From assembly GCA_049643885.1 (NCBI GenBank), contig JBARQV010000027.1, positions 3,294 to 67,293 on the forward strand: DNA of 64,000 nt, read 5' to 3'. How positions within the stretch are numbered: position 1 is the first letter of the stretch; every line of letters begins with the position of its first letter. Position numbers and translations under genes: made by a program. This document shows, piece by piece, positions 2,612 to 52,100 of the stretch. The notes beneath the pieces are model-generated. The model saw nothing but the letters and a program-made list of their open reading frames with translations. It was not told the origin of the DNA and searched no databases. This DNA comes from Candidatus Omnitrophota bacterium (lineage in GTDB: Bacteria > Omnitrophota > Gorgyraeia > Tantalellales > Tantalellaceae).

Positions 2612-2612
2612 G

Positions 2613-6905: not shown

Positions 6906-6915
6906 GGAGGAGACA

Positions 6916-8339: not shown

Positions 8340-8340
8340 G

Positions 8341-8361: not shown

Positions 8362-8365
8362 CGGT

Positions 8366-8812: not shown

Positions 8813-8886
8813 CACGCCCGTCGCCCGACGATTAGACCCCCCGATTTTTGCCTTTTCATGCTTTATGTGCTATATTTTACAACGAT

Positions 8887-29868: not shown

Positions 29869-30107
29869 ATATCCAGATATCCCCAAAAAAAGCACAATTA
29901 AAAGTTTAATTAGCTAGATAGCGCCAAAAATCCCTCCATTTTTAATTAACCCAAATTTAATCAAATTCAAATAATTACTTAACGTGCATGCTATATACTT
30001 GAAGTGTATGGCGAATACATATATATATGTGTATTCGCTTGAAATACGTTGAAATGTTAGGTAAACTAAAAGAGTGTAGCAAAAGACGCTCTTTCTTCTT
30101 TGAAAAT

Positions 30108-30235
30108 TCGCGAAAGGCAAACCCCGTGAAAGCGGGGGGCGCAAAGCTTGAGAGCCTAAAGCCGTTGGCTATGGCAGTCAGTTGCCGAATGGGAAAAATT
30201 AAAAACCCATAGCTTCTCAGGCTATGGGTTTTTTG
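30108..30235 (+). promoter_or_regulatory. c-di-GMP-I (GEMM) riboswitch-like leader, copy 1, with terminator expression platform
   Basis: AAAGGCAAACC; P2 hairpin CCCCGUG-AAA-GCGGGG carrying a GAAA tetraloop; GGCGCAAAGC; tetraloop receptor CCUAAAG...CUAUGG. The arrangement is close to the Vibrio Vc2 class-I aptamer. A terminator follows at 30205-30235 (ACCCAUAGC-UUCUCAG-GCUAUGGGU-U6). Confidence 0.8.
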
Positions 30236-39200: not shown

Positions 39201-42200
39201 GACTCGACCGGCGCGGGAAACGATCTCACCAACACCAACGTTACATTTGCCGGGGCCGATCCTAAGATAGGTGATTACGCGTTGTTTGATGGAGACGGTG
39301 ATCAATTAGAAGACGGAGACGGCGAGTCCTATATCAACGGATTGTCGGCAATAACCGTTTCCATGTGGGTCAATTCGGATATCACCGGAACCGACAGGGG
39401 ATTTTTTGATACCGAAGCGCCTGACGGGAATGATGACGTTACAAACCTAAGATATGATGACGCGGGCGCAAGCGGAGGAGCGGATGATTGCCTCAAAGTA
39501 AGCATTAACGCCACTACCGGTGAACAGCAGGCGTTGGAGAGTTCTGCGCTTAGCCAGACAACCAGCTGGCAGTATATCGTCCTTACATGGTCATCCGGGG
39601 TTGATGTTGCGCTATATCTGGACGGTTCGCCGGATACGCCTTCTTACTTGGAGGCTGGCGCTAGCAGCGGCACCTTGCAGAACGCCACTACCGTTTTAGT
39701 GGGTAAAGGCCCTAAAGACGGCGCGGCGCAGAGTTGGGACGGGCTGATCGATGAGGTGCGTGTTTCCAGCATAGCCCGGCCCTCCGGATGGATATCTACG
39801 GAACACAACAACCAGGACAACCCTTCGGCGTTTCACTCGACCGGGAGTGAGGGTTCGTCAGCTCCTGTTCTTGACTTGAGCGGGCAGAACCTCACCGTGA
39901 CCGGCACATTAGATAATTGCGGAACTATTAAGCTCGAGGGCGGCGAGACAGTGAACCTTACCATGGACACCGATTCAGGGCTGGTGGAATATTACGGAGC
40001 CGGCTCTTACGCAGGCCTTGTCGCCGGCGATGAGTATTATGATGTTAAGTTTTCCGGCAGCGGCAATTTTGACCTGGACGCGAACCTGCAAATAAACGGC
40101 GATCTTAATATCACGGGCTCCGTGACAGGGGACGCCGCGGGATATTCTTATTATAAAACAGTGACTATAAATTATAACTATGTAGACGATGATCTGACCA
40201 ACTTCCCGATGCTTTTTATTGTCGCCGACAGCGATCTGGCGACCGTAGTGAATGGCGGAAACGTGAACAGCTCGAGCGGCTACGATATAATCTTCACCGA
40301 CACAAGCGGAAATCAGCTTGACCACGAGATCGAGAAATATGATCCGGAGACAGGCGAAGTAGTGGCATGGGTCAGGATCCCCTCACTGTCCGGTTCAGTT
40401 AACACGGCCATTAATGTACATTATGGTAACGGTTCAGTGACCGCTTCCCAGGAAAATGTCAGCGGTGTTTGGGGAACTATCTATGACGGAGTTTGGCACC
40501 TGAATGACGACTTGCAGGATTCCTCGTCCACCGCCAATAACGGCACAAACAACGGATCAGCTGACGCGACCGGCAAGATAGCCGATGGGCAGTCTTTTAA
40601 CGACGCGGAGAGCGACTATATCGCGGTAGGGTCCGACCTTAGCCAGTGGCTGGGCAGCGACGGGTATGTATCCTTATGGATCAATACGACACAGACAGGC
40701 AATGATACGATGTGGCAGGCGCCCGGTGTGACCGGCGTGGAGCAATCAGGAGGCGCTAATGACATTTTCTACGGGTGGATAGATGCTTCCGGCCAGATAG
40801 GCGTCCAGGCAGGGAACACCGCCGGAGCGAAGAGCGCTGCAGACATAAATGACGGCGCGTGGCATTACATAGCCATGACGCGGAACGCGACTACAGGCGA
40901 AGTAAATATGTATGTAGATGACAACACGGTTGTTACGGCCACTTCGGAGACGGGGGCAAAAACAAATGCATTTTACAGTTTCGGGAGGATAGAGGACACA
41001 GGGGGCACCCCGGTCTATTTTAACGGCACGCTTGATGAGATCCGCGTTACGGATTCCATAAGACCGGCCGAGTGGATATCGACCGAATACAATAACCAGT
41101 TTTCCCCGGGAACGTTTTTCGGGACCGGAGGAGAGACAAGGAACGCCCCGGTCCTCAATGCCGGTAGCTATAACATCAATATAGCCGGCAATTACTCGCA
41201 GGACGAAGGGACTTTTGTCGCCCCGTCAAGCGTTCTCGGTCTTACAGGCAATTTCGACCTCACGGGAGGCACGTTCAACCACAACAGCGGCACTATCGCT
41301 TTCAACGCGACCGATACGGACAACACGCTCAACTTGAACGGCACCGCTTTCAATAACGTGAGGTTTGTTAACACTGCCACATATGCGCTGAACAGCGACC
41401 TCGATGTCGACGGCACGCTTACTTTCGCGCAGGAATCAGGATACGGAAAAGAAAAGACCATAACGATAGACCATGATCTGGTCGCGGAGGACCTGACCGA
41501 TTTTCCGATCCTTTTCAGCGTAACAGACGGCGACCTGGCCACGGTCGCCAACGGCGGTGACGTCGCTAACGCCAACGGCTACGACATCATATTCACCGAC
41601 GCGAACGGCACGCGGCTTGACCATGAGATAGAGAGCTACGATCCCGTTTCCGGCCAGATAGTCGCCTGGATAAAGGTTCCCGCGGTCTCTGCTGGCGCGG
41701 ACACGGTCATATACATGAAATACGGCAATGATGACATAACTACCTCCCAGGAGAACATCTCAGGTGTTTGGGACTCAAGTTTTGTAGGTGTGTGGCACAT
41801 GGATGAGACTTCCGGACTTGTATATGATTCTACATCCTACAATAATGACGGCACTGTATTTGCTTTTGCGCTCGGGGAAGTGAACAGGAGCGAGACCGGA
41901 AAGATAGACGGGGCCAATGATCTTGATCTTGCAAGCTATCCGAACGATCCCGCATATATTTTAATGACTGATTCCGGCAGCTTGGACATCACGGGAGAAC
42001 TCACGATATCGGCCTGGATAAATGCCGATGACCTTACGAACAGCAGGACGATCGTAGCGAAAGGTGCTTCGCTGACAAGCGTGAACTACGCTTTAAGCAC
42101 GAACGGCACGGAAGCTCAGTTCGGTTTCTATAACGGCGGAAATCGAACGTATGTTACCTCGAGTGCGGGGATTTCGACAGGCACCTGGTATTATGTTGCT

Positions 42201-44420
42201 GCCACGTACGATGACGCAGCGAACAGTGTGAAAGTTTATGTCAATGATACCAACAAGCTCGATACTTCTTCGACGTATTCACTGATAGCCGATAACGGCA
42301 ATTTGAATGTAAGCACTTATACATATGCTCCGGCTGGTGTATACGGTTTTAAGGGTTCGATAGATGAAGTTCGCATATCTAATACGGACAGGAGCGCCGG
42401 GTGGCTGGAGACAGAATTCAATAACCAGACAAGCCCCGCGATATTCCACAGCCAGGGAGGCGAAACGGTACCATTGACGACAATAGTTCTCAACAATAAC
42501 GATATCATTGCCGCGAGAGATTTTCACGGCAAAGGCGTTACGCTTTCCGGGGCAGGCGGCGTGGTATTGGATGGATCGAGCACTCAGAGTTTTGACCCGG
42601 GTTCGGTGAGTCTTTATAATCTGACGATCTCCAACAGCTCAACCAACGGCGTTCAGGTCAGCGACAGCCTGACGGTTACAAATGCATTGACAATATCTTC
42701 GAACGGCGTTCTCGACCTTCAGGACCAGGACCTTACTGCTACCGGCGCTTCTTTCTCCAATGACGGGACCCTTAGGCTTGTCGGAGGGCAGACGATAACC
42801 GGTCTTACAATGGATACCAATTCCGGGACAGTGGAATATTACGGGAATGGCTCCTACACCGGTCTTGCGGCGGGGAACAACTATTATAATCTTTATTTTT
42901 CCGGCGACGGTTCTTATGCGCTTACCGGAGACCTGGACGTGAATAACGATCTGACGTTCGCAAGCTACACATGGTACGATGCCAACTGGTTGAGCAGGAT
43001 AAAGATCACCGTTTCAAGCTCTCAGGTCGGTGAAAACCTGGCCGACTTCCCGGTTTACGTGGACCTTTCGGACCTGGGCTCGTCTTTCTTCAGCACCGTA
43101 AAAACAGATGGGTCTGACATACTTGTAACGGAAATTGATGGCACGACGGTTCTCAAGAGAGAAGTCGTTGACATAGACACGACCGGGGAGACAGGCGAGC
43201 TCTGGTTCAAAGCATCAAGCCTGAGCTCGTCAACAGACACGTCTTTCTATATCTATTACGGGAACTCAAACGCTTCCCTGGGCAATGATACGGATGTCTG
43301 GAGTAACAGCTATCTCAGCGCGTGGCATCTTGAAGACGCTAACTCCGACTCGACGCCGAACAACCATGATCTTACTGACAACAGTACTTCAAGTGTGGCA
43401 GGCAAGATCGGCGGCGGGCAGGACTTCACGGCCGGCGCGTATTTGGAAGATTCGAACGCTGAAATTTATATCAACGGCCTGAACGCGTTCACTTTGAGTT
43501 TGTGGGCCAATGCCGACGCGATAGGAAACGACCACGGCCTTGTAGTTTCAAAGACTCCGGATAATGCGGATGATGACGGGATCAACCTCAGGTATGACAG
43601 CGCGGGAAGCGACGGAAGCGGTACTAATCTTATCAAGGGGTCAGCAGGAACTTTCGGATGGCCCAGCAGTAATCCATTCAGGTACGAAAGTTCATCTGAC
43701 ACGCAGTCTGCCGACTGGCAATATCTTACTCTTGCATGGTCCAGTGGAAGTCAGATGGCGCTTTATGTGGATGGCGCGGCTGACACTCCAGATTATAACA
43801 GCACAGCCAGGACTACGACCATTACCGGTGCGACTACATTTATCATAGGAAAGGGCACCCAGGATACGACAGGCGGATGGGAAGGGCTTATTGACGAAGT
43901 GTGTTTATCCAACGTCGCCCGCTCCGCGGGATGGATATCCACCGAATACAATAACCAGAATTCCCCGTCTTCGTTCTACGCGACCGGCGGGAGTTCGAAT
44001 ATAAACATAAACACCCAGGGTTACAATATCACTGTTGGCGGAAGTTTCGAGAACCCGGAAAATGTCGGCTCTTTGAGCGGCTCGGGGACGGTGATATTTG
44101 ACGACGCGACTAAAGCATCGAACATCCTTGGCGACACGATCTTCTATAATTTTAGCTGCGCTACTGCCGGGAAACAACTCTTCTTTGAAGCAAGCTCGAC
44201 TACGACTATACAAGGCACGCTGACCCTTATCGGCGGGTCGGGAAACCCGATCATTTTAAGAAGCACCTCGCCGAACACGGCATGGAACATCGATCCGCAG
44301 GGGGCAAGAAGCGTTTCTTACGTTGACGTCCAGGATTCCACGAACCTTGACGTTACAGACATCATCGCCACAAGCTCCGCCGATTCCGGCCGCAACACCG
44401 GCTGGGCCATCACCCCGTAA
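30249..44420 (+). CDS. giant TpsA-family exoprotein (4723 aa): N-terminal TPS domain followed by seven [DUF2341 + LamG/concanavalin-like] modules and beta-helix-like spacers
   Basis: TPS-domain N-terminus (LPKVDEVVSGEAEV...NATDNTIINYQSFNI...LVNQNGIYVGPNANI). Recurring Y-S-Y-K-K-x-I-x-I...L-T-(N/D)-F-P-(V/M)-L-F-S-V...Y-(Y/H)-G-N module heads lie at nt ~33741, 35020, 37561, 38846, 40141, 41441 and 42970. Each is followed by a LamG-like domain ending ...L-D-E-V-R-(I/V)-S....G-W-I-x-T-E-(Y/H)-N-N-Q-x-S-P. Confidence 0.85.
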   Translation: MVRLAEMNNNNSLRVCIIILAMLFAWTNCVYSLPKVDEVVSGEAEVKMVDPNTMQINATDNTIINYQSFNIMEHESVIISLPNSSSEILNRVIGPDRSDLFGNLSCNGIFILVNQNGIYVGPNANIEAASAILSTRDITDSDFIDGQYLFQKLSDEEMDMLLLNEGTIRIQDGGFGVLIAGAIENNGKIIAPCGKIVLAGGDAIKLNMSANGLISVAILEKTASKIYDHEGNPILDQIKNTGELRANGGAVILKAESVTDVFRSAINLEGVVEANRVEDKDGVISIVADNDVTINAEMAATSIDIKTEYDIDLDANIVASEGDILLFADYDGDGIGSFRQHGGLIEATGEGDIYIEGSGEMVLGAVKTELGAIKIGTQREPFSITGEPHYIHSKGDFEITAMDEGEEVTTLHTSRGDVLKYNTTGKVILEAADGRIEQLIQEPLPAGYLELKARTFDVNSEADVTVINDIDSNIYIEKLIEISEDVVSLEGETTGRVTYLISNDIVLQTPHDVDTAPGVIIPGDNVKITARRIGSNDSPVGISANLTYIHRIQGDIVISEIWGLGTTICIRGPDPDTNPDSWGAINLNKNTDLILEASQGGLFISENCALQAQNLTLIASQGIENYGSLLVENGTLTLTAEGAVISLGSLRAETLIEEGASFVVGGEYIVGYATARNADNAVTLYTGNYSGETSDTGDIAVKNNNIITLVGDTIFRADSDQNGVGGFKPQVGSSIVGGGYNLWIYGSESSTLRQITGVGTLSLYRSYASSNPYYIDYSAWSVGNLIIGAGISLDIQGVGLTLSGNFTNNGTFVSNNAVIFSGAGTSNITGNITFNNLTCTTAGKILKFKEGQTFTINGTLALTGTSGNEIVLDSQNGSTQFTFKVASAQSVSYIVVANSNVDDTSGGNITASNSYNDGNNDTGPTGRYWAGLPAATYSVYGAVYSDQGSTLMGAGVNIVLARNGVVTANTNTLASGQYAFHGRAFSANDVVLIYINNSTTNGNVVVIVDAARITGADIYGNTAIARHQTAGPVTNATFSTAKGSMTDTDIIYSVSGSNLELNEGVSFVVWTGDTYTPGGNLYCNDVVVQSSAIFNAAAGSTISASGDWANSGTFNPSTSTVILTGGSVQTLTSGGSSFNNLTIAGVGTYRLQDALNVTGTLAISGYSYKKAIVIDNTKVNADLTNFPVLFSVTDSDLAVTGSGGYVTSSNGCDIIFTDHAGVQLDHEVESYNPATGQIIAWVKVPSLSNSTDTTIYVHYGNSDIITSQENPTGVWSNGFAAVWHLGSSINDSTSNGITGTNNGTTEETTIVKVGTSTYFNGSESDYINYGEPSALDISGNNPITIETWVYFNSVAANYQDFFSKGDTQYHLQKNNADPGVIQFVIYDGDWQLVQADSNVSTGTWYHVVGTYNGVSGGALELYINGSKQTGSDTAASINNTAYSVYMGENSQSTGRYLDGYMDEARICNAYRTGGWIQTEHNNQSSPSTFYPNYTSEARTTGDSATLCLNGKNLSTATLNNTGTLRLLGAETVSITTMDTDSGLVDYYGDGSYTGLAAGDSYFDLTFSGTGVYTLDADLDINGDLSFTPTFQYRKEITIYASQVDADVTDFPVLFSVTDADLIDNLMHDANYTIKFTNATGTELPYEVEYYNNATGQLIAWVKADSLSSSTNTTLWLYYGSLEADSTEAATSVWSNNYSAVWHMSEASGTIYNSTSYPNNGTAAGGITYGAAGKIDGSVSLDGVDDRINCGWDPSLSPSNAITVSLWTQNAVSPAQYDGILGKTSSFKWDDGYGMFYNSSTEVRFYVSNYSANVAYASLTPTNMNYIVGTFDGSNVRIYVNGVEGTADPYAGTISSTAAMLVLGQLSGTAYNINGKLDEVRVAGTWRPSGWISTEFKNQNSPGTFFGTGSEISGGATINAGSYDINSAGDFDLTSGIFDAGTGTVIFDGVSTQTLTTASYDFYGLTVSNASSNGVQLADALTVTNALTISTNGVFDLQDNNMTATGAVFSNDGTLRLVGSQAITGLVMDTDSGTVEYTGDGDATQETFTIKDFGAIDYYHLLINDTNATTANRDIISVGVGTNLNVDGDLTVSGGTLNINGQSVNIAGNFSVSASPDARYQQGGGSDNTFDGSGNATIDTGGTDDDHDLTRFIVDKSGGAVLTVINNGVDINESLTITNGVLSLNGQNITTTTTFSNSGTLRLQGNESVSWTTNDTDSGKWEYVGDGDSLADTYTIKDFGTPDYYNLTINSTDGVTDTFQLGAALDVDRNLTITSGRLDANSQNINLAGNWIKTGGTFDSGTNTVTFDGGSAQTMNSGGTDTGSDFNNITVSGSTVQLIDNAVDIDGTLTINSGKVFDLNGQDFTLATLDNSGTLQLEGTETVAITTMDTDSGEVLYTGSGSYTGLAAGDNYYDLTFAGIGSYALDAALDVNGSLAISGYSYKKAIVLESDQVSGTADLTDFPVLFSVTDTDLRTTGNGGQVTDPNGYDIIFVDSNGDQLDHEVEAYNAATGQLIAWVKVSALDYNDDTTIYIYYGNSNITSSRENASGVWSNSYAAVYHLGEAGTGTAGDYQDSTSNSNDSVSTSNQPSQTTGKIDDYGQYFDGSEAIRIADASSLEPTSMTISCWFKRDGAQKDWTKIVHKGQGNSPFGSYILQLSADETEAEFQVAKTTPDYAKASSGTGAVADDTWYYLVGTYDGTTYDGILYINSANIDSFNDTAPLYYETTGLGIGGPGYNAYNDAAIGVVDEVRISSAVRTQGWITTEYNNQNTPSALYPTYTSGSGQTAGSAGTLDAAGYNMNIGGSWTNSGTFTHNNNTVIFDANDADNTITSGGSSFNNVTISSGTYAMQDAMVIDGNLTTCPWADEYSYRKTITIESDYVDADVSDFPMLFSVTDTDLIDNVMSGSNYTIKFTNSTGTELPYEVEYYNNGTGQLIAWVKADSLSGSTDTTLYLHYGSSGTASTENPSGVWSNGYEAVWHLTDAADSTGAGNDLTNTNVTFAGADPKIGDYALFDGDGDQLEDGDGESYINGLSAITVSMWVNSDITGTDRGFFDTEAPDGNDDVTNLRYDDAGASGGADDCLKVSINATTGEQQALESSALSQTTSWQYIVLTWSSGVDVALYLDGSPDTPSYLEAGASSGTLQNATTVLVGKGPKDGAAQSWDGLIDEVRVSSIARPSGWISTEHNNQDNPSAFHSTGSEGSSAPVLDLSGQNLTVTGTLDNCGTIKLEGGETVNLTMDTDSGLVEYYGAGSYAGLVAGDEYYDVKFSGSGNFDLDANLQINGDLNITGSVTGDAAGYSYYKTVTINYNYVDDDLTNFPMLFIVADSDLATVVNGGNVNSSSGYDIIFTDTSGNQLDHEIEKYDPETGEVVAWVRIPSLSGSVNTAINVHYGNGSVTASQENVSGVWGTIYDGVWHLNDDLQDSSSTANNGTNNGSADATGKIADGQSFNDAESDYIAVGSDLSQWLGSDGYVSLWINTTQTGNDTMWQAPGVTGVEQSGGANDIFYGWIDASGQIGVQAGNTAGAKSAADINDGAWHYIAMTRNATTGEVNMYVDDNTVVTATSETGAKTNAFYSFGRIEDTGGTPVYFNGTLDEIRVTDSIRPAEWISTEYNNQFSPGTFFGTGGETRNAPVLNAGSYNINIAGNYSQDEGTFVAPSSVLGLTGNFDLTGGTFNHNSGTIAFNATDTDNTLNLNGTAFNNVRFVNTATYALNSDLDVDGTLTFAQESGYGKEKTITIDHDLVAEDLTDFPILFSVTDGDLATVANGGDVANANGYDIIFTDANGTRLDHEIESYDPVSGQIVAWIKVPAVSAGADTVIYMKYGNDDITTSQENISGVWDSSFVGVWHMDETSGLVYDSTSYNNDGTVFAFALGEVNRSETGKIDGANDLDLASYPNDPAYILMTDSGSLDITGELTISAWINADDLTNSRTIVAKGASLTSVNYALSTNGTEAQFGFYNGGNRTYVTSSAGISTGTWYYVAATYDDAANSVKVYVNDTNKLDTSSTYSLIADNGNLNVSTYTYAPAGVYGFKGSIDEVRISNTDRSAGWLETEFNNQTSPAIFHSQGGETVPLTTIVLNNNDIIAARDFHGKGVTLSGAGGVVLDGSSTQSFDPGSVSLYNLTISNSSTNGVQVSDSLTVTNALTISSNGVLDLQDQDLTATGASFSNDGTLRLVGGQTITGLTMDTNSGTVEYYGNGSYTGLAAGNNYYNLYFSGDGSYALTGDLDVNNDLTFASYTWYDANWLSRIKITVSSSQVGENLADFPVYVDLSDLGSSFFSTVKTDGSDILVTEIDGTTVLKREVVDIDTTGETGELWFKASSLSSSTDTSFYIYYGNSNASLGNDTDVWSNSYLSAWHLEDANSDSTPNNHDLTDNSTSSVAGKIGGGQDFTAGAYLEDSNAEIYINGLNAFTLSLWANADAIGNDHGLVVSKTPDNADDDGINLRYDSAGSDGSGTNLIKGSAGTFGWPSSNPFRYESSSDTQSADWQYLTLAWSSGSQMALYVDGAADTPDYNSTARTTTITGATTFIIGKGTQDTTGGWEGLIDEVCLSNVARSAGWISTEYNNQNSPSSFYATGGSSNININTQGYNITVGGSFENPENVGSLSGSGTVIFDDATKASNILGDTIFYNFSCATAGKQLFFEASSTTTIQGTLTLIGGSGNPIILRSTSPNTAWNIDPQGARSVSYVDVQDSTNLDVTDIIATSSADSGRNTGWAITP

Positions 44421-44434: not shown

Positions 44435-47400
44435 TTATATAAGGCCCCTTGCTACCAATACCTCCAGAGCGCCATTCCGGATATGATCATCTTTCATCAA
44501 TTTTTTAAGTCCCGCGCCTGTCAATCCCTGCTCAAGTTCGTCCATGTTCTCAAAGGGTATCCGCAGGACGTCGCTGCCTTTTTGCATATCGATATGGATA
44601 TGGGGCCTATCCACGACACTAAGACTTTCTCTGGCTTTTATAATGACGTTTGTTTCCTGCCCGGCAACTTTTGTCTTGATGGTCGGGATGTTCGTTCTTG
44701 CTTTTCCGCTATCTTTTATTGAATCCACAACGGCCTTGTCGGATTCGGAGAGGGCATCATAGGCCTTGCTGGTTTTTTTAATATTCTCTGATTTTGAACC
44801 GGCCTTGGAAGCATCTGATGCATCGTCCGCTTTATCCGCGGCTTTTGCCGTGTCAGCCGCGTCTTCCGCCTTATCCGCGGCTTTCGCGGCGTCAGCTGCA
44901 TCTTCTGCTTTCGCTGCCGCTTTCGCGGCGTCAGCTGCATCTTCTGCTTTCGCCGCAGCTTTAGCAGCATCCGCCGCCTCGTCTGCTTTAGACAGAGCTT
45001 TGACCGCATCTACTACCTCGTCGGCCTTCGAAGCGCCCCTTACGATCCCTCCATTGATAAAGATCCCGACAACAGGTAAGGCCGCGACGAAAGATATTGC
45101 TCTTTGCCAAAGCGGCAGGTCCTTTTCTCCGGTAATGGGATCTTCCCCGAAAAGGGCAGCCTGCATGTCTTGGCCATCGCCCACGCCCGGAACAAAACCC
45201 GTTCCGGCGCTTCCAAGTATTTTTTGTTCGTCGGGGACAAGCCATCTTGCTAATGCATTATATGCAGGGTAGGCGATGGCCCCGAAAATTGCGGACCCGC
45301 CGAAGCATATTGCGCCTGGCCAGCCCCCGGCGGCAAGAAAGCCGGTACATACAGGGGTCATTGTGGCTGTCATGCCGACTGAGCCGCTGATCGCTTCTTT
45401 TGCCAAAGGCGAGAGTTCGCTGTCGCTTCTAAGATGATCACAGGCTTCCGGGACATAAGTGCTATGGGTATCGCAGTTCAGTGTATTCATATCGGGTATT
45501 ATGCCCTCAGCCTGAAGATCTCCAGGGTCGATCTCGATATCTATGTTATCAGCCTGGGATTCTACATAAAAATCATCTAAATTAAGATCTGATAGAGGGA
45601 ATGATCCATCAAGCGTGCATACAGCCAGGTCCGGTTCGATCGTATCCGGCGCTGCGCTTACGCCCGGCAAAAGGCCCAAGCCCGGGGAAGAGACCAGCTC
45701 TACATATCTATTAAATACGTTTCCGATGCCGCTGAAAGTCTCCGAGGCGGAATTTTTCATTTCGTCCAGCTTGTTCGAAGCGTAGTCTTTAAATTCTTCA
45801 AATTTATTTAAAACAGTTTCTTTGGCGGATTCAGCCTTGTCCGAAATAAATTCTCTTGCGGCTTCGGCCTTGTCGGAGATGAATATATTGGCGGCCTCGA
45901 CCTTGTTGGCGACATAAGCATTGGCTTGATCGATCTTGTTGAAGATGAAGGTTTTGGCCTGCTCGGCCTTTTCCGAAACTACGGTTTTGGCCTGCTCAAC
46001 TTTCTCCGAAACGTAATTAACTACGGCATCTTTGACAGTAGTGACTTTATCCTTTGCTTTTTCAGCGGCGTTTGCGAGGGCATCTTTCGCCTTGGAAGCT
46101 GCTTCGCTGACAGCATTTACTACTTTTGCGGCAGTGTTCTTGACGGAATTACTTACGCTCGAGACCGCTCTACTGACAGTATTCTTAGCGCTCGAAACGG
46201 CCTTGCTCACGGTTTTTGAGACGGTTTTAACCGCGCTTGATACGGCTTTGCTTACTGTTTTAGCCGCGCTTGATACGGTCTTGCTCACGGTCTTTGCAGC
46301 CGTGCTTACGGCCTTGGAGACGCTTTTGGCAACGCTTTTAGCGGCGCTGCTTACTTTGCTGACAGCTCTGCTGACAGCGCTTCTTATGCTACTGAAAAGG
46401 CCGGCGCCGAAAATATTTTTCATTTCACTTTCGCTTAAGGCGGCGCCGCCTTCCACGGCGCTGAGCAGAAGGGCATTGCCGGTAAAAAATTGACCGAAGT
46501 CTTGCAGGCTTGCCACCTGGTCGCTTCCGGGAGCGGGGTCAAAATATGTAACTTGTCCGTCCTCTATCTTTTTGACGAGGACGTAATGGTTGCCGTTGAC
46601 GTGGGCGATAAAGGGGGAGTTTGTGTTTTCAAGAGCGCCTTCGGATATGTTTTGCCCGTGCAAGGTCACGCCGTTCGCTTCCGCTGCCTGTTTAAGGGCG
46701 AACAGGGAAAGTTTAAGCTCGCCTGTCGTGTCTTTATTGATAGCGCCGCTGAAGATATCGCTGAGGATCGCCTCTTCGGCGAGCGTGCTTCCGGATACGC
46801 TTTTTCCGATCTGTTCGAATAATCCGCCCAGGGCTATTATGCCGCACGAGACCAGCGGGAGAGGGAGGGTCGTAAGATAACTCATGGCTCCCTTTATAGA
46901 CTCGCTGACGAAGCTTTTATCCTGGAGGCGCATTACGATGTTCAGGAGAAGGTTGCCTTGCGATCCCTGTTCGACGTCGCCGGGATCTATCGCTGAATCT
47001 TCCGCGTCCAGTTTCTGGTCTTCCGTGGCCTTAAGATTTTTATCACTTATTCGTTTAAGTATCTCAAAGAGTCTTATCGCGGGCATCTTGGCTCTTGAGA
47101 TGATATCGACAAAAGCATTGAGCATCTTTTCGGTCGGTTCTTTCCCGAAGACCTTGCTGTAGCTTTCTCTCAGTGAGCGCCTGACGGTCTCCGTCCTGTT
47201 TATTTCGTCTAAAACTGTTCTGCCGTCAGCCAGAATGGCGCCGTCGCTTATCGCGAGAAGAATATCATTGATCTGGTCTTCGGTCAGGACGACGGTTTGC
47301 CCGCCGGTTTCGTGAAAAATCCCGACTTGGTCCTCCTGTTGTATGGTGAGGGATGGTTCCAGTATGATCGCTAACAGGGCGGATTGGAGCTTTTTATCCT

Positions 47401-48688
47401 GATCTTTAAGGGAGCTGATGAGACCGCTCATGGATTCAAGAGCTTCTTCGTAGAGACTTTTAGTCACTCTTTCGTTCTCAACGGCCGCTTTGAAATCCTG
47501 AAGCTTCTCGTTCGTTCCCGATTCCTCCAGTGCCTGTTCGACGCTGGTAAACGCAAGGCCTAACAATGTTTCAATGTCGGCTTTTTTAAAATTGAGCCTG
47601 TCCAGCGATTCCTCCAGCGAGCTCATCATGCTGTCGAGATAATCGTAACGCGAAGTTTCCGCGGCGATCTCTTCGTCAAGCGTGTCTATTTCAAGTTCCA
47701 AAAGTTTTATTGTTTCATAGTCGGACAAGAGATCGGTCTCACATTGGGTTATCTCGGCTTCCGCGGCGTCTATGGCGCTCAGTTTGTTTTCATACGCGGA
47801 TAACGCGATCTGGTACGCTGTCTGGGCAGCGGTGTATTCCGGCATGAAGGAGTCGTAAGCGGCAAGCTTATCGTTATAAAGTATCTGCAGCGCGGCATAT
47901 TCGGATTCTTTTTGCGCTTTTTCTACCGGATCCTCCGTCGCTTCGATCTCTTCCAGTTTTGTGTCGAGGCCGCTTTGAATAACATCAAGCTCGGCCTCCA
48001 TGGCTTCTTTCTGAAAAGTTTTTTCATCGAGCAGGGCTTCGGCGGCGTCCAGGTCGTTTTTGCGGACGGCCTTTTCATCATTCAGCTGGGACAAAACGGT
48101 TTCAAGGTCGTTTATATCCGATTCAAGGGCCGTTGCTTCCGACAGTTTGCTTTGGACGGAAGAACTTTTTGAAGCCACCCTGTTTTCCAGTTCCTGGATG
48201 GATGTCTGTGTTTCTTCCTTGTCCTGTTCGACGTCGTTAAGCTTCTGTTCGACGCTTCCGATCTGAAGGTTTATGCTGTTGAGCGAAGAGGTCAGGTAGT
48301 CCAGCTGGTTGAAATAGTCCTCGAGAAGCGCTCTCTGATTGACAAAATCCTGCCAGGCGGCTTCTTTTTCGGCGACGCTTGAGATGTATTCGTTTTCCAG
48401 CTGCTTAAGGACAGTGAAATCCAGAGGGTTGATAAGACCATAAAGGAAAGCGATTATCTCTTCTTCCGTCTGCAGGGGAGTGCCGGTTGAGACGTTATGT
48501 TGTTCGATAAGCGTGTTTTTTATGTCGGAAAATCTTTGCAGCTGTTCCGGGGCGAGATACTGGCTCTGGTCCTGATTTTCGTTGAAGGGTATGTATTGCT
48601 GGTCCTGGGGCCACCCAGTCTGGGTGATAAAAAAGATCAAGGCTACCGCTACCGAAATTACTTGAAAAAGAGGTTTTTTGGTTCTCAT
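44435..48688 (-). CDS. large secreted coiled-coil protein with a papain-like C39-family peptidase-like domain, two 11-residue amphipathic repeat arrays, a Cys/Gly-rich hydrophobic region and a (DAAKAAAKAEDAA)n tract
   Basis: Signal peptide MRTKKPLFQVISVAVALIFFITQTGWPQ (start at 48688 preferred over 48715). About 550 aa of heptad-rich coiled coil. C39-like catalytic Cys motif PLVSCGIIALGGL...IG and His motif NGNHYVLVKKIEDGQVTYFDP. 11-mer repeats (VSKAVSTAAKT / VSKTVSSAAKT ... and SEKVEQAKTVV / SEKAEQAKTFI / ANKVEAANIFI / SDKAEAAREFI ...). Confidence 0.6.
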   Translation of the reverse strand: MRTKKPLFQVISVAVALIFFITQTGWPQDQQYIPFNENQDQSQYLAPEQLQRFSDIKNTLIEQHNVSTGTPLQTEEEIIAFLYGLINPLDFTVLKQLENEYISSVAEKEAAWQDFVNQRALLEDYFNQLDYLTSSLNSINLQIGSVEQKLNDVEQDKEETQTSIQELENRVASKSSSVQSKLSEATALESDINDLETVLSQLNDEKAVRKNDLDAAEALLDEKTFQKEAMEAELDVIQSGLDTKLEEIEATEDPVEKAQKESEYAALQILYNDKLAAYDSFMPEYTAAQTAYQIALSAYENKLSAIDAAEAEITQCETDLLSDYETIKLLELEIDTLDEEIAAETSRYDYLDSMMSSLEESLDRLNFKKADIETLLGLAFTSVEQALEESGTNEKLQDFKAAVENERVTKSLYEEALESMSGLISSLKDQDKKLQSALLAIILEPSLTIQQEDQVGIFHETGGQTVVLTEDQINDILLAISDGAILADGRTVLDEINRTETVRRSLRESYSKVFGKEPTEKMLNAFVDIISRAKMPAIRLFEILKRISDKNLKATEDQKLDAEDSAIDPGDVEQGSQGNLLLNIVMRLQDKSFVSESIKGAMSYLTTLPLPLVSCGIIALGGLFEQIGKSVSGSTLAEEAILSDIFSGAINKDTTGELKLSLFALKQAAEANGVTLHGQNISEGALENTNSPFIAHVNGNHYVLVKKIEDGQVTYFDPAPGSDQVASLQDFGQFFTGNALLLSAVEGGAALSESEMKNIFGAGLFSSIRSAVSRAVSKVSSAAKSVAKSVSKAVSTAAKTVSKTVSSAAKTVSKAVSSAVKTVSKTVSKAVSSAKNTVSRAVSSVSNSVKNTAAKVVNAVSEAASKAKDALANAAEKAKDKVTTVKDAVVNYVSEKVEQAKTVVSEKAEQAKTFIFNKIDQANAYVANKVEAANIFISDKAEAAREFISDKAESAKETVLNKFEEFKDYASNKLDEMKNSASETFSGIGNVFNRYVELVSSPGLGLLPGVSAAPDTIEPDLAVCTLDGSFPLSDLNLDDFYVESQADNIDIEIDPGDLQAEGIIPDMNTLNCDTHSTYVPEACDHLRSDSELSPLAKEAISGSVGMTATMTPVCTGFLAAGGWPGAICFGGSAIFGAIAYPAYNALARWLVPDEQKILGSAGTGFVPGVGDGQDMQAALFGEDPITGEKDLPLWQRAISFVAALPVVGIFINGGIVRGASKADEVVDAVKALSKADEAADAAKAAAKAEDAADAAKAAAKAEDAADAAKAADKAEDAADTAKAADKADDASDASKAGSKSENIKKTSKAYDALSESDKAVVDSIKDSGKARTNIPTIKTKVAGQETNVIIKARESLSVVDRPHIHIDMQKGSDVLRIPFENMDELEQGLTGAGLKKLMKDDHIRNGALEVLVARGLI

Positions 48689-48967
48689 CGGAACCTCCTT
48701 TATTTGGCATGCCAAGCGAGACAGGGTTAAAGAAAATAAAGAGCAATTTTATATTGTTAATATATCACTTCTAAGCGGTTTTTGCAATGAGATTTACAAG
48801 AATGCCTTCGGGGCGAGAGACCCAGAAAGGTGTTCTGTGGGGGGGGCGAAGAAGAAAATGTTAAAAAAACAAAAGGCAGTAGAGGTTTTCTTATAATATT
48901 ACTTACCATGTGCTATACTTTAACTGGAGCTACATATACGCGTTCTTTGGGATATTTGTATAAGTAA

Positions 48968-49095
48968 CGATAAAGGCAAACCTTGCGAAAGCAGGGGACG
49001 CAAAGCTCAAGAGCCTAAAGCCGGGAGGCTATGGTAGTCAGTTGCCGAAACCGAGAATCCGTGACCCATAGTCTGTCCAGGCTATGGGTTTTTTA
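48968..49095 (+). promoter_or_regulatory. c-di-GMP-I (GEMM) riboswitch-like leader, copy 2, with terminator expression platform
   Basis: AAAGGCAAACC; P2 CCUUGCG-AAA-GCAGGG, which differs from copy 1 by compensatory changes (C-G to U-A, and U.G to C-G); GGACGCAAAGC; CCUAAAG...CUAUGG. Terminator ACCCAUAG-UCUGUCCAG-GCUAUGGGU-U6 at 49064-49095. Confidence 0.8.
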
Positions 49096-49120
49096 TTTTA
49101 GAGGTAGATAGGTGCCTGAA

Positions 49121-52100
49121 ATGAAAAGCAAAGCCGTAACGACAATCATATTCTCGGTATGTGCAATATTTTTTGCAGGGGTGGCGTGTGTCCATCCTCT
49201 TCCTGAGGTGGACGAAGTCGTTTCCGGCGAAGCCGAAATAAAAATAACCGACTCCCAGACAATGAACATCGATGCGGCAAATCATACGATCATCAATTAC
49301 ACATCGTTTAATATAAATGAAAATGAAAAAGTATACATCAACCTTCCTTCCAGGGACAGCGACATACTCAACAGGGTGACCGGGAAAACCCCAAGTTATA
49401 TTTTAGGCGATCTGTATTGCAACGGTGTCTGCATCCTCGTGAATGCGTCAGGGATCTATGTAGGACAGAACGCGAACATCGACGCGGCGGGTCTTGTTCT
49501 TTCAACTCGGGACATAACCGATTCAGATTTTATTTCCGGGAACTATGTGTTCAAAAAACTTTCCGATGAACAACTTGACATGCTTTTGTTGAACGAGGGA
49601 ACGATAAAGATCCATGACGGCGGTTTTGGTGTCTTGATCGCGGGCGCTGTTGAAAACAGGGGAACAATAATTTGTCCCGCGGGAAAGATCGTCCTGGCGG
49701 GAGGCGACGCGATAAAACTTGATATCGCGGGCAACGGATTAATTTCTGTCGCGATACTTGAAGAGACCGCGTCAAAAATCCTGGATTACGAAGGAAATCC
49801 GATAACGGACCAGATAAAAAATTCCGGGCGCCTGGAAGCGAATGGCGGAACAGTTATTTTAAAAGCGGAAAGTGTCACGGATATTTTTCAGTGCGCGATA
49901 AATCTTGAAGGCTTTGTCATGGCAAACAAAGTGGAAGAGAAAGACGGAAAGATCTGTTTGGTTGCTGATAGCGAAGTAAAACTTAACGCGGAAATGCAAG
50001 CGACACAAATCGAGATATCCGCGGGAAAAATTTCAGGCGCACCTGATCGTGTCCACGCAAAAGGTGATTATCTGAAAGTCGAAGCACCCGAAATAAACAT
50101 TCATTCAGAAGCTATAACAACTCATATTATTGACACCGACAGTGGCATAAATATTAAAGAACTTATTGAAATACCCGAAAGTAATTTAATTAAACTTATA
50201 GGCGAAGATACCGGAGAAGTAACATACATAAAAACACATAACATCACTTTAGAAACTCCCAGGGGCGATGTAAATACCGCGCCTGGCGTGGTCATACCCG
50301 GTAATGAGGTCAAAGTGTCCGCGCGGCGGATAGGCTCGCGCGACAATCCTGTTAATATTGATGCCAACCTCACCTATATTAACAGGATACAAGGCGACAT
50401 CATTGTCTCCGATATGTGGGGACTTGGGTCGACCATCTCTATCAGGGGTCCTGACCCGCACCCGGATAGTTGGGGCGCTGTTGTTTATAACGGCGGTTCT
50501 GACCTCGTTCTTGAAGCGGAAAATGTCGTTCTCTCGGGTAATGAACCTGTCCATTTATATGGAAATATTACCTTCCATAATCTCAGCTGTACCGTTCCGG
50601 GGAAAGAAATATATTTTGAAGCCGGGAAAACCTGCACCATATTGGGCGATCTGAAGATGCAGGGTGCCGATGCTCAGCACATTAAACTGCTCTCGTCCGA
50701 GGAAGGGAGTTACTGGTTTATAGACGCGCGCGGGGGCAGGGACCTTACCTATACCTGGGTCGAAGATTCCTATAATCTTGCCCCCGATGAGGTCATGATG
50801 ACGGAATCCACCAATAGGGGCGGGTGCTTCGGGTGGGATCCAACAGCCACCTGGACGGGGGCTGTGGATAACCTCTGGTCCGAGCCGGGCAACTGGATCG
50901 GTCTTGGCGGAGGGGTTATACCGGGAGCCGGGGATGATGTGGTGTTCGATGTTACCAGCAGCGCTGATTCTACCATAGACCAGGCCTTCACGATCGCTTC
51001 TTTAACGATAGATGCCGCGTATGGGGGGACCATAACACAGAGCGGTAATTTGGCCGTCTCGGGCGATTACGCGCAGTCCGGCGGGACGTTAAGCTGCACG
51101 GATCCGGCGGCACATTCTTTTACGGTCGGCGGGAGCTTCAATCTAACAGGCGGCGCGTTCAACCGCTTCACCGGGACAGGAACAAGCGGCGATCCGTTCT
51201 TAGTTAGGGATATATATGACCTTCAGGCGATAGACCTCCGTTTATACAGCTACTATAGCCTTAATAATAATGTTGATGCCGCCGTTACACAGAGTTGGAA
51301 TTCAGATGGCGCGGGTGGCTATTACGGGTTCAACCCGATAGGGAGCAGTTCCACCTGGTTCAGCGCCGTCTTCGACGGCCGGAACAACACGATATCGAAT
51401 CTTTACATTAACAGGCCTGCCGAGACCCATATCGGCCTGTTTGCCCGCACCCGCGGGGGCGGACAGGGGATACGTAACGTCGGGCTGGTCGGAGGCAGTG
51501 TCACCGGAGGCGACAGGACAGGAAGTCTTGTCGGTTACGTTGAGTATTCCGTAATAGAGAACTGTTATGCTACAACCGATGTGACAGGCACATACCGTAT
51601 GGTTGGAGGACTGGTCGGATCAGCCAGCGGTAATGGCAGGATCACCGGTTCATACGCGGAAGGAACTGTGGCGGGTGCCGGCAGCAATGTCGGGGGGCTG
51701 GTAGGGCAGGCCGGTAATAATTTTACCATCGAGAATTCTTACGCCACGGGTGCTGTAACGAATAGTTCATACAATACCGGTGGTCTGGTAGGTAATGTAA
51801 ATAACTGTACTATTACCGGCTCATATGCCACAGGTGATGTATCGAGCACAGGCAGCGGTGAAGCTACCGGCGGCTTGGTAGGTTATTTTATTTCAGGAAC
51901 CATCACTGATTGCTATGCCACTGGAAATATAATAAGTAATGCTAATCTGAGTGGTGGTCTGGTCGGTTACAGCCAGGGCACGATCAGCGGTTGTTATGCT
52001 ACCGGAGAAGTTACCGGTGCTATGAATGGCGGAGGCCTTGTCGGCGGTGTTTATCCGGGTGGTATTGTTGAGAACTCCTATGCTATGGGCGATATAATAT

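What the first reader, a model, noticed from the sequence alone, without database searches (positions are those of the whole stretch)
44435..48688. 1.4-kaa secreted coiled-coil protein combining a C39-like cysteine-peptidase domain with apolipoprotein-like 11-mer repeats
The architecture is signal peptide, ~550 aa of heptad coiled coil, a papain-fold C39-family-like domain, two amphipathic repeat arrays, a hydrophobic C-terminal region, an acidic repeat tract and a conserved-looking tail.

The peptidase-like domain has a Cys motif (VSCGIIALGGL) and a His motif (NGNHYVLVKKIEDGQVTYFDP), as in bacteriocin-processing double-glycine peptidases and Peptidase_C39_2.

The repeat arrays have strict 11-residue periodicity: about 7 units of KxVSxAxKTVS and about 8 units of SxKxExAxxFI. 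This is the periodicity of apolipoprotein, alpha-synuclein, LEA and perilipin lipid-surface-binding helices.

The C-terminal region is Gly/Cys-rich and hydrophobic (GFLAAGGWPGAICFGGSAIFGAIAYPAYNAL..., LPVVGIFINGGIV). The acidic tract is (DAAKAAAKAEDAA)x4. The tail reads RPHIHIDMQKGSDVLRIPFENMDELEQG.

This is not a recognisable named protein family. It could be a membrane-targeting processing protease or a toxin-like effector associated with the TPS system.
Basis: partly seen in the sequence, partly recalled or inferred. Interest (0 to 1): 0.8.

Follow-up and report, generated by a model that had tools for sequence, protein, structure and literature searches.

The report
Self-cleaving secreted toxin-like protein
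This gene from an uncultured Omnitrophota bacterium encodes a rare secreted protein laid out like a bacterial "polymorphic toxin", and it appears to carry both a bacteriocin-type cutting enzyme and that enzyme's own recognition site, so it probably cuts itself to release a membrane-binding arm tipped with an unknown toxin-like domain.

Summary
The ORF is real. It lies on the minus strand at 44435-48688, encodes 1417 aa, has a strong Shine-Dalgarno site, and is identical in three NCBI Omnitrophota MAG assemblies. Pfam confirms Peptidase_C39 (48 bits, cutoff 22). The 11-residue periodicity is extreme: 20 contiguous units in one register, z=45.

First, the "hydrophobic Gly/Cys-rich region" is a Pre-toxin TG domain (PF14449, E 8e-10), a hallmark of polymorphic toxins. 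Second, directly after the C39 domain sits L751-S-x-x-E-M-x-x-I-x-G-A762. This matches the double-glycine leader consensus LSxxELxxIxGG that C39 peptidases cleave. It is conserved in all homologues and occurs only once in six-frame translation of the 64-kb window.

The three known lineages share residues 1-~850 and have unrelated C-terminal halves.

Best reading: a Sec-exported polymorphic-toxin-like effector whose internal C39 domain acts as a releasing peptidase, cutting after A762. Cleavage, toxicity and target are inferred. Both structure models failed, the 119-aa tail is an orphan, and no immunity gene follows. Linkage to the TPS genes is not conserved. This is a new variant of a known kind.

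The parts
44435..48688 (-). Whole ORF, 1417 aa plus stop. A polymorphic-toxin-like effector with C39 and PT-TG domains.
   Evidence: The product is identical to NCBI MGB2629887.1, MGB2879300.1 and MGB2960915.1.
48694..48700 (-). Shine-Dalgarno AAGGAGG, 5 nt before the ATG at 48688. This favours the ATG over the upstream TTG at 48715.
   Evidence: Read directly from the sequence.
48608..48688 (-). Residues 1-27: Sec-type signal peptide or signal anchor (RTKK followed by a hydrophobic core at residues 7-25). The cleavage site is weak in this copy (GWP|Q). Homologues have GWA|I and CGA|D.
   Evidence: hydropathy. The cleavage site was assessed by inspection only.
48407..48598 (-). Residues 31-94: strongly conserved N-terminal region (YxPF[ND]E[NS]Q[DQ]QSxYL..EQL..F). 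Role unknown.
   Evidence: Alignment.
47369..48406 (-). Residues 95-440: acidic helical stalk with local heptad patterns (coiled-coil segments with register shifts).
   Evidence: 65% of windows exceed the 95th percentile of shuffles; sub-threshold matches to SMC coiled-coil models.
46889..47368 (-). Residues 441-600: conserved non-repetitive helical region preceding the peptidase. No family match.
46445..46888 (-). Residues 601-748: C39-family cysteine peptidase domain. Candidate triad: C615 (46844-46846), H701 (46586-46588) and D717 (46538-46540), all invariant in homologues.
   Evidence: Pfam. A profile of homologues matches PDB C39 domains (6mpz E 5e-6; PCAT1, ComA), with H701 and D717 aligned to an HF/DP pair; that these are the catalytic His and Asp is from recall of the ComA/PCAT1 residue numbers. 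Invariance. The Cys is not aligned by any profile.
46403..46438 (-). Residues 751-762, LSESEMKNIFGA: a double-glycine-type leader motif. The predicted scissile bond is A762|G763.
   Evidence: The only match in six-frame translation of the window, and found in 25 of 20000 shuffles. L, S, E, M, K, I, G and A are invariant in all homologues while the flanks vary. Consensus LSXXELXXIXGG from PMC1538908.
45740..46402 (-). Residues 763-983: 20 contiguous 11-residue repeats in one register. This is an amphipathic 11/3 helix with an apolar Ala/Val(/Phe/Ile) stripe flanked by Lys, net charge +14, and no Pro.
   Evidence: Sub-threshold matches to Apolipoprotein, alpha-synuclein and a tape-measure protein, and PHROG tape-measure families.
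45359..45739 (-). Residues 984-1110: acidic, Pro- and Cys-containing linker (net charge -19, 3 Cys). No family match.
45002..45358 (-). Residues 1111-1229: Gly-rich hydrophobic region containing the Pre-toxin TG domain (Pfam match at 1160-1229). It includes the loop G1181-E-D-P-I-T-G-E...R1196 and the hydrophobic segment 1197-1216.
   Evidence: PF14449: 36.8 bits in the whole protein, and 39 bits, E 8e-10, in the isolated segment. Hydropathy. The Gly/Asp/Arg plus TG loop is described in PMC13483458.
44795..45001 (-). Residues 1230-1298: Ala/Asp/Lys tract with a 13-aa period. Probably a rigid helical spacer.
   Evidence: The 39-nt tandem repeat has 4.4 copies at 44819-44991. The helical-spacer reading is inference.
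44438..44794 (-). Residues 1299-1417: orphan C-terminal domain in the position occupied by the toxin in polymorphic toxins.
   Evidence: No hit in Pfam, PHROGs, the word-indexed 5.8-billion-protein search, the 1.84-billion representative library, or plasmid and phage tblastn. The AF2 model had pLDDT 43.

Best explanation
The gene encodes a Sec-exported effector built like a polymorphic toxin, and it probably processes itself. The proposed steps follow, each marked as shown or inferred.

(1) An N-terminal signal peptide or anchor takes the chain across the inner membrane. The sequence feature is shown; export is inferred.

(2) Residues 31-600 form a conserved head, a roughly 340-aa coiled-coil stalk and a conserved helical region. 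Together these present or oligomerise the protein. This is inferred.

(3) The internal C39 cysteine peptidase domain (C615/H701/D717) recognises the double-glycine-type leader motif that lies 3-8 residues after its own C-terminal end (L751-S-x-x-E-M-x-x-I-x-G-A762). It cuts after A762, either in cis or between chains held together by the stalk. The domain and motif are shown; cleavage is inferred.

(4) Cleavage frees a fragment of about 655 aa. Its N-terminal 220 residues are one long amphipathic 11/3 helix that adsorbs to a target membrane. The periodicity is shown; membrane binding is inferred.

(5) The hydrophobic Pre-toxin TG module, a rigid Ala/Asp/Lys helical spacer and a 119-aa orphan C-terminal domain follow. 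These act as the delivery element and the toxic or effector payload. The PT-TG domain is shown; a payload function is inferred from position only.

The constant region (about residues 1-850) is combined with unrelated C-terminal halves in the other two known lineages, as expected for cassette-swapping toxins.

No immunity gene follows this copy, and Omnitrophota are proposed predators or parasites. The target may therefore be a foreign host or prey cell rather than kin. This is speculative.
For: Domains:
- Peptidase_C39 scores 48.4 bits against a cutoff of 22.
- PT-TG scores 36.8-39 bits against a cutoff of 23.5.
- A profile of the family matches solved PCAT/AMS C39 domains (6mpz E 5e-6; PCAT1 and ComA about 0.02). 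H701 and D717 align to an HF/DP pair in these domains, which I take (from recall of the ComA/PCAT1 triad numbering) to be the catalytic His and Asp.
- The toxin-type C39-related chain 9l5u matches more weakly, E 0.095.
- C615, H701 and D717 are invariant at 36-38% overall identity.

Cleavage motif:
- LSESEMKNIFGA fits the LSXXELXXIXGG consensus. G-A is an accepted variant, since C39 domains cleave after Gly-Gly/Ala/Ser.
- It is the only such motif in all six frames of the 64-kb window.
- It arises in 0.125% of shuffles of the protein.
- It is conserved in every homologue while the adjacent residues 744-750 vary.

Precedent: a C39 domain cutting its own chain in cis after a Gly-Gly is described for StbD-CT.

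Polymorphic architecture: residues 1-~850 are shared with P0002 (and the same gene at L001, L003 and L004) and with L002, whereas residues 984-1417 have no similarity to their C-terminal halves. The P0002 tail is weakly ParB-like.

Repeats: 11/3 periodicity with z=45 and an apolar stripe flanked by Lys.

Gene reality: identical in three assemblies. GC content is the same as the neighbouring genes.
Against: - No structure-based support. Both AlphaFold models were unusable (pLDDT 38 and 43).
- The Cys-bearing N-terminal third of the C39 domain is not aligned by Pfam or PDB profiles.
- There is no Gln about 6 residues before the Cys, where ComA-type C39 domains have their oxyanion-hole Gln. The Gln position is from my recall; its absence here is by inspection.
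- No known toxin domain is present, and the tail is an orphan.
- No co-directional gene follows. The convergent TpsA stops 14 bp away, and the only antisense ORF there looks like noise. The immunity-gene hallmark is therefore missing.
- Only this lineage has a significant PT-TG match. The PT-TG-like repeats seen by eye in P0002 are not significant.
- The family has only three lineages, so 'polymorphic' rests on few cases.
- No route across the outer membrane is identified.
- C39 domains normally work in the reducing cytoplasm, and StbD-CT auto-processing needs reducing conditions.
Confidence: 0.55

Rival explanations
1. The C39 domain is a processing protease for other proteins. Candidates are the flanking TpsA adhesins or unseen double-glycine peptides. 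The rest of the protein would tether it to the envelope.
For: The gene sits between two TpsA genes and near a TpsB gene. C39 domains classically act on separate substrates.
Against: No double-glycine leader motif occurs anywhere else in six-frame translation of the window, including in both TpsA proteins. The only motif is the protein's own. Homologues in other genomes have no TPS neighbours. The TpsA genes are separate units, each with its own c-di-GMP riboswitch. No ABC exporter or small peptide genes were found among the neighbouring ORFs scanned (20.1-29.9 kb and 49.1-63.3 kb of the window).
Confidence: 0.1
2. The protein is a structural or adhesive envelope protein, with a coiled-coil stalk and a lipid-binding amphipathic helix. 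The C39-like domain would be a non-catalytic binding module, like the C39-like domain of HlyB-type exporters. No toxin would be involved.
For: The Cys region is not aligned to C39 profiles and no oxyanion Gln is evident. No toxin domain or immunity gene was found. The long helical repeats resemble structural proteins such as tape measures.
Against: Cys, His and Asp are all invariant at the expected spacing. A conserved cleavage-type motif directly follows the domain. The PT-TG match is significant. The C-terminal halves are swapped between lineages.
Confidence: 0.15
3. The C39 domain is itself the toxic activity, as in the Tox-PLC39, StbD-CT and Cpe1 peptidase toxins that cut GyrB/ParE. The C-terminal half would serve in delivery.
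For: C39 domains are documented toxin modules in polymorphic toxins, and they auto-process at Gly-Gly.
Against: In those toxins the C39 domain is the C-terminal, variable module. Here it lies in the constant region, upstream of the pre-toxin domain, and the variable part is C-terminal. The family profile matches exporter-type C39 domains better than the C39-related chain 9l5u, E 5e-6 against 0.095. After cleavage at A762 the peptidase would stay with the N-terminal stalk.
Confidence: 0.1
4. The ORF is an assembly, fusion or frameshift artefact joining several genes.
For: It is a long mosaic of dissimilar segments. One related locus (L003) does carry a frameshift, and L002 has an N-run.
Against: The identical 1417-aa product occurs in three NCBI assemblies, with fragments in others. 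The same N-terminal architecture is found in independent metagenomes. The frame is continuous, with a strong SD. Composition is uniform.
Confidence: 0.02

Closest known systems
C39 peptidase domains of PCAT/AMS ABC exporters (ComA, PCAT1, LahT-type) and their double-glycine leader peptides
   Same: Same Pfam family (PF03412). The His and Asp align to those of solved exporter domains. There is an invariant Cys at the expected spacing. A recognition motif matching LSxxELxxIxG(G/A/S) is present.
   Different: The domain is not fused to, or encoded near, an ABC transporter among the neighbouring ORFs scanned. It lies behind a Sec signal and so is extracytoplasmic. The 'leader' motif is in the same chain, downstream of the peptidase rather than at a substrate's N-terminus. 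The 'cargo' is a 655-aa multidomain fragment. The N-terminal third of the domain is divergent, with no evident oxyanion Gln.
Polymorphic toxins with built-in releasing peptidases and pre-toxin domains (Zhang et al. 2012, PMC3482391); PT-TG-containing toxins (PMC13483458)
   Same: The domain order matches: trafficking signal, long repeat or stalk region, internal peptidase, pre-toxin (PT-TG) domain, then a variable C-terminal module. Relatives share a constant N-terminal part and have unrelated C-termini.
   Different: C39 is listed in that work as a toxin module (Tox-PLC39). It is not among the releasing peptidases of Sec-dependent toxins (caspase, HINT, MCF1-SHE, subtilisin, ZU5). There is no downstream immunity gene in this copy. 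The C-terminal domain belongs to no known toxin family. The repeats are 11-mers rather than RHS, FilH or ALF. The host phylum is Omnitrophota.
StbD-CT / Cpe1 C39 peptidase toxins (bioRxiv 10.64898/2026.05.07.723447)
   Same: A C39 domain inside a delivered toxin cuts its own polypeptide at a Gly-Gly-type site in a linker, and this processing is needed for function.
   Different: In those toxins the C39 domain is the C-terminal toxin, the site is upstream of it, and delivery is by CDI or T6SS. Here the domain is internal and conserved, the site is downstream, and the released part is everything C-terminal to the peptidase.
11-residue amphipathic repeat proteins (apolipoproteins A1/A4/E, alpha-synuclein) and phage tape-measure proteins
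   Same: A strict 11/3 hydrophobic periodicity over about 220 residues, with a narrow apolar stripe flanked by Lys. Weak profile matches to all of these.
   Different: All matches are below family thresholds (Apolipoprotein scores 42 bits against a cutoff of 90) and reflect periodicity and composition. There is no evidence of common ancestry.
Autoprocessing large toxins with an internal cysteine protease domain (MARTX, TcdA/TcdB). This comparison is from general knowledge and was not tested here.
   Same: The logic is the same: an internal Cys protease releases effector modules from a large secreted precursor.
   Different: Those toxins use a different protease fold (a clan CD CPD activated by InsP6), different delivery machinery and different hosts.

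Membership tests
Peptidase C39 (PF03412 / MEROPS C39) | Profile match above the curated threshold | tested here: met
   48.4 bits against a cutoff of 22, E 1e-12, residues 654-743 on profile positions 39-129 of 133. Homologues score 45-51 bits.
Peptidase C39 (PF03412 / MEROPS C39) | Catalytic His and Asp at the positions seen in solved C39 domains | tested here: met
   The family profile aligns H701 ('NGdHYV') and D717 ('FDP') with an 'NHF'/'AHF' His and a 'DP' Asp in 6mpz and PCAT1. That these are the catalytic residues rests on my recall of the ComA (H96/D112) and PCAT1 (H99/D115) numbering. Both residues are invariant in the family.
Peptidase C39 (PF03412 / MEROPS C39) | Catalytic Cys at the start of the N-terminal helix, with an oxyanion-hole Gln about 6 residues upstream | tested here: inconclusive
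   There is an invariant C615-G-x-x-A-L, 86 residues before the His. The corresponding distance in ComA and PCAT1 is 78-79, from my recall. No profile aligns this part, and no conserved Gln precedes the Cys.
Peptidase C39 (PF03412 / MEROPS C39) | Papain-like fold with Cys-His geometry | not testable with these tools
   The single-sequence AlphaFold model had pLDDT 38. Too few homologues were admissible to build an alignment.
PCAT/AMS bacteriocin exporter | C39 domain fused to ABC transporter transmembrane and ATPase domains | tested here: not met
   No ABC domains were found in the protein or in the neighbouring ORFs scanned.
Double-glycine leader substrates | LSxxELxxIxG(G/A/S) motif ending at the scissile bond | tested here: met
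   L751-S-E-S-E-M-K-N-I-F-G-A762. It is unique in the window, occurs in 25 of 20000 shuffles, and is conserved in all homologues. Consensus.
Double-glycine leader substrates | Motif within a short N-terminal leader of a separately encoded peptide | tested here: not met
   The motif lies at residues 751-762 of the same chain that carries the peptidase.
Polymorphic toxin systems (Zhang et al. 2012) | Pre-toxin domain preceding the C-terminal module | tested here: met
   PT-TG (PF14449) at residues 1160-1229, 36.8-39 bits against a cutoff of 23.5, with the G-x-D-P-x-T-G-E...R loop (logo described).
Polymorphic toxin systems (Zhang et al. 2012) | Constant N-terminal region combined with different C-terminal modules among relatives | tested here: met
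   Residues 1-~850 are shared at 36-38% identity. Residues 984-1417 have no similarity to the C-terminal halves at L001 and L002. Only three lineages are known.
Polymorphic toxin systems (Zhang et al. 2012) | Recognisable C-terminal toxin domain | tested here: not met
   The tail (residues 1299-1417) matches nothing. This does not exclude a new toxin domain.
Polymorphic toxin systems (Zhang et al. 2012) | Immunity gene immediately downstream | tested here: not met
   The convergent TpsA ends 14 bp from the stop codon. The antisense ORF at 43905-44213 looks non-coding. Co-directional small ORFs do follow the homologues at L001 and L002, but their role is unknown.
Polymorphic toxin systems (Zhang et al. 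2012) | Toxicity neutralised by a cognate immunity protein | not testable with these tools
   This needs experiments.
Apolipoprotein A1/A4/E (PF01442) | Profile match above the curated threshold | tested here: not met
   42.4 bits against a cutoff of 90. The same stretch matches tape-measure PHROGs and alpha-synuclein at a similar weak level.
Two-partner secretion cargo (TpsA) | N-terminal TPS secretion domain | tested here: not met
   There is no TPS match in this protein, whereas both neighbours have one.

The most novel reading that the evidence does not exclude
A bacteriocin-type peptidase and its cognate double-glycine leader have been fused into one chain and moved outside the cytoplasm, where they act as a self-contained, transporter-independent release switch. 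In Omnitrophota (and two related MAG lineages labelled Planctomycetia) this switch frees a membrane-seeking 11/3 helix that carries a pre-toxin module and a toxin domain of an entirely new family. The toxin would be used against prey or host cells rather than kin, which would explain the missing immunity gene.
Probability: 0.3. Interest if true: 0.75.

Novelty: new variant of a known kind. Interest (0 to 1): 0.6.

Why it matters
If the predicted cut after A762 is real, C39 domains would join the set of 'releasing peptidases' of polymorphic toxins. It would also be a clear case of a leader-peptidase/leader pair from bacteriocin export being reused in cis. The result would be a compact self-cleaving module (about 170 aa plus a 12-aa tag) with a defined recognition sequence, which could be useful as a tool.

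The protein also supplies a candidate effector, with an orphan C-terminal domain, for Omnitrophota. That phylum has been proposed to live as predators or parasites, but its attack molecules are essentially unknown.

The prediction can be tested directly with one recombinant construct and two point mutants.

Tried and rejected
1. AlphaFold2 on the C39 region (residues 575-785) and on the tail (residues 1280-1417) as single sequences gave pLDDT 38 and 43. Both models are unusable, so no fold search was run. The weak beta-beta-alpha pattern around RPHIHID...DVLRIPF...MDELEQG suggested a His-Me-finger nuclease to me, but this is speculation only.

2. A word-indexed search with residues 430-763 returned nothing, not even the protein itself. 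This was probably a candidate-cap effect.

3. The exhaustive search with the tail against the representative library also returned no self-hit. That null is therefore weaker than its size suggests. tblastn against plasmids and phages also found nothing.

4. A profile of the N-terminal, Cys-bearing part of the C39 region did not retrieve C39 structures from the PDB.

5. A profile of the three 'G-x-D-S-x-T-F...L-x-P-x-E-R' repeats of P0002 picks out the query's PT-TG loop as its best match, but the score is not significant. PT-TG in P0002 is therefore not claimed.

6. The ParB-like reading of the P0002 tail (DGHHR) is sub-threshold: Pfam E 0.07, Spo0J and SbnI E 0.08-0.15.

7. The antisense ORF at 43905-44213 was considered as an immunity gene and rejected. 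It lies inside the TpsA coding sequence and its translation is Arg-rich noise.

8. Horizontal-transfer composition signal: none.

9. Promoter and terminator scans found no more sites than chance.

10. A viral-contig scan for the family found nothing.

11. Homology to apolipoprotein or tape-measure proteins was rejected as shared periodicity and composition.

Full report
**1. What is there**

The finding's coordinates hold one long ORF, but on the minus strand. The stop is at 44435-44437. An ATG at 48688 is preceded by AAGGAGG five bases upstream, and there is an alternative TTG at 48715. The product is 1417 aa.

The identical sequence is on record from three NCBI MAG assemblies of Candidatus Omnitrophota, under the name 'cysteine peptidase family C39 domain-containing protein'. 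A 308-aa fragment is named 'pre-toxin TG domain-containing protein'. GC content matches the neighbouring genes. The gene is real and is not an assembly fusion.

**2. Checking the described anatomy**

- *N-terminus.* Residues 1-27 are RTKK followed by a hydrophobic core. This is a Sec signal peptide or signal anchor. The cleavage site is poor in this copy and better in the homologues (by inspection).
- *Stalk.* Residues ~100-440 are acidic and helical with local heptad patterns. In this span 65% of 28-residue windows beat the 95th percentile of shuffles, but there is no single global phase. The coiled coil is therefore about 340 aa, not 550.
- *Middle region.* Residues 441-600 are conserved and non-repetitive, and match no family.
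- *Peptidase.* Pfam gives Peptidase_C39 at residues 654-743 (E 1e-12, 48 bits, cutoff 22).
  - A profile of four family members matches solved exporter C39 domains: 6mpz at E 5e-6, and PCAT1 and ComA at about 0.02.
  - H701 and D717 align with an HF/DP pair in these domains, which I take (from recall of the ComA/PCAT1 triad numbering) to be the catalytic His and Asp.
  - C615 sits in an invariant C-G-x-x-A-L, 86 residues before the His. No profile reaches this part and I see no conserved oxyanion Gln. The Cys assignment is therefore by inspection.
- *11-mer repeats.* These are stronger than described. Residues 763-983 form 20 uninterrupted hendecads in one register. Identity autocorrelation is 0.44 at lag 11, and hydrophobic power at 3.667 residues has z=45. 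An apolar Ala/Val (later Phe/Ile) stripe is flanked by Lys, there is no Pro, and the net charge is +14.
- *What the repeat matches mean.* The stretch matches Apolipoprotein (42 bits against a cutoff of 90), alpha-synuclein, a tape-measure structure and many tape-measure PHROGs. All are sub-threshold or compositional. This is a shared periodicity, not a shared family.
- *Ala/Asp/Lys tract.* It is a 39-nt repeat with 4.4 copies.

**3.

*(a) A pre-toxin domain.* The Gly-rich hydrophobic region is a Pre-toxin TG domain (PF14449). It scores 36.8 bits in the whole protein and 39 bits (E 8e-10) on its own, against a cutoff of 23.5. It contains the loop G-E-D-P-I-T-G-E...R, which fits the Gly/Asp/Arg plus TG signature described for this domain. 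PT-TG is a marker of polymorphic toxins, where it lies between the trafficking part and the C-terminal toxin.

*(b) A cleavage motif next to the peptidase.* Within eight residues of the end of the C39 domain lies L751-S-E-S-E-M-K-N-I-F-G-A762.
- It matches the double-glycine leader consensus LSXXELXXIXGG. C39 domains cleave after Gly-Gly/Ala/Ser.
- It is the only occurrence of this pattern in all six reading frames of the 64-kb window. It arises in 25 of 20000 shuffles of the protein.
- Its key residues are invariant in every homologue, although the residues just before it differ.
- The hendecad array begins at the very next residue, G763.

**4. Relatives**

The family is rare. Searches found only the following:
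- the protein itself;
- P0002, 2180 aa, from ENA and JGI metagenomes. The same gene is seen at L001, at L003 (frameshifted) and at L004 (truncated);
- a 1491-aa protein at L002, in a MAG labelled Planctomycetia.

All share the signal, the conserved head, the stalk, the middle region, the C39 domain, the cleavage motif and a Ser/Val/Lys hendecad array, at 36-38% identity. Beyond that the query's residues 984-1417 have no similarity to the others. Those two share a different module with each other. P0002 ends in a weakly ParB-like domain.

The query's last 119 residues match nothing in Pfam, PHROGs, two very large protein searches, plasmids or phages. One caveat applies: the representative-library search did not return even the query's own cluster.

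**5. Surroundings**

The gene lies tail-to-tail with a 4723-aa TpsA (TPS domain, seven Laminin_G_3 and seven DUF2341 stretches), with 14 bp between the stop codons. It is divergent from a 2084-aa TpsA (TPS, GLUG, YDG), which is followed by a TpsB gene and then housekeeping genes.

Each TpsA start is preceded by a c-di-GMP-I riboswitch. The finding's gene is not.

The relatives sit in different neighbourhoods: HEAT-repeat and response-regulator genes at L001, and a short secretin, a porin and UvrB at L002. The protein has no TPS domain. I therefore see no evidence of a functional link to the TPS system.

No co-directional gene follows this copy, so the usual immunity gene is absent.

**6. Mechanism proposed**

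Shown:
- the domain order;
- the significant C39 and PT-TG matches;
- the invariant Cys, His and Asp;
- the conserved, unique double-glycine-type motif adjacent to the peptidase;
- the extreme 11/3 periodicity;
- the swapped C-terminal halves.

Inferred:
- Sec export;
- oligomerisation through the stalk;
- C39-catalysed cleavage after A762, in cis or within an oligomer;
- release of a ~655-aa fragment that binds a target membrane through its amphipathic helix;
- delivery of the C-terminal domain with help from the hydrophobic PT-TG module.

A C39 domain cutting its own chain at a Gly-Gly linker has a precedent in StbD-CT. In the standard catalogue of polymorphic toxins, C39 appears as a toxin module rather than among the releasing peptidases of Sec-dependent toxins. 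Text searches of the recent PT-TG survey found no mention of C39. A 2026 preprint notes a cluster of very long Omnitrophota proteins carrying PF03412 but does not interpret it. Omnitrophota have been proposed to be predators or parasites. That would fit an effector aimed at foreign cells and the missing immunity gene, but this last step is speculation.

**7. Verdict**

The most likely identity is a self-processing, Sec-exported, polymorphic-toxin-like effector in which a C39 domain and its own double-glycine site form the release device (confidence about 0.55). The main rivals are:
- a non-catalytic structural or lipid-binding protein (0.15);
- a protease acting on other substrates (0.1);
- the C39 domain itself as the toxin (0.1);
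- an artefact (0.02).

It is a new variant of a known kind. It is moderately to clearly interesting, because the key prediction is sharp and cheap to test. Cleavage, toxicity, target and outer-membrane passage all remain unproven.

Noticed in passing
window 30106-30189 (+) and 48965-49049 (+): Two c-di-GMP-I riboswitch aptamers (RF01051, 75 and 80 bits) lie just upstream of the two giant TpsA genes, which start at 30249 and 49112. The second aptamer is followed by a 12-bp hairpin and a T-run at 49063-49100, which looks like its terminator-type expression platform. Both adhesin-like TpsA genes therefore appear to be controlled by c-di-GMP.
   Followed up: partly
window 30249-44420 (+) and 49112-55366 (+); 55367-57067 (-): One TpsB gene (ShlB/POTRA_2) sits with two very different TpsA cargos. 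One is 4723 aa, with a TPS domain plus 7 Laminin_G_3 and 7 DUF2341 stretches. The other is 2084 aa, with TPS, GLUG and YDG domains. Neither is followed by a small co-directional gene, so they look like adhesins rather than CDI toxins.
   Followed up: partly
L001 14162-15172 and L002 13184-14755: The C-terminal halves of the two other family members share a ~400-540-aa module at 27% identity. By eye it carries SAM-methyltransferase-like motifs (LDIGGGK..., LLQPGGVEHLV) and is followed by a glycine-zipper segment. There was no Pfam match.
   Followed up: partly
L001 16100-16540: The P0002 homologue ends in a domain with a DGHHR motif and weak ParB/Spo0J/SbnI similarity (E 0.07-0.15). It may be a ParB-like toxin module. 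The next gene (16712-17308) encodes a 198-aa multi-pass membrane protein of unknown role.
   Followed up: partly
L002 8939-9814 (-): A short (291-aa) secretin-family gene (Secretin_N plus Secretin) lies divergently, immediately upstream of the L002 family member. It could hint at an outer-membrane exit route, but it is not seen next to the other copies.
   Followed up: no
L003 2229-8910; L002 14477-14782: The L003 copy is split by a frameshift (ORFs 2229-5126 and 4744-8910). The L002 copy appears to continue past its stop into an ORF that contains a masked N-run. These are likely assembly problems or pseudogenes.
   Followed up: no
window 44438-44794 (-): The exhaustive representative-library search with the 119-aa tail returned zero hits, not even the query's own cluster, even though P0001 and P0003 are in the parent collection. 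Null results from that library should be read with this in mind.
   Followed up: partly
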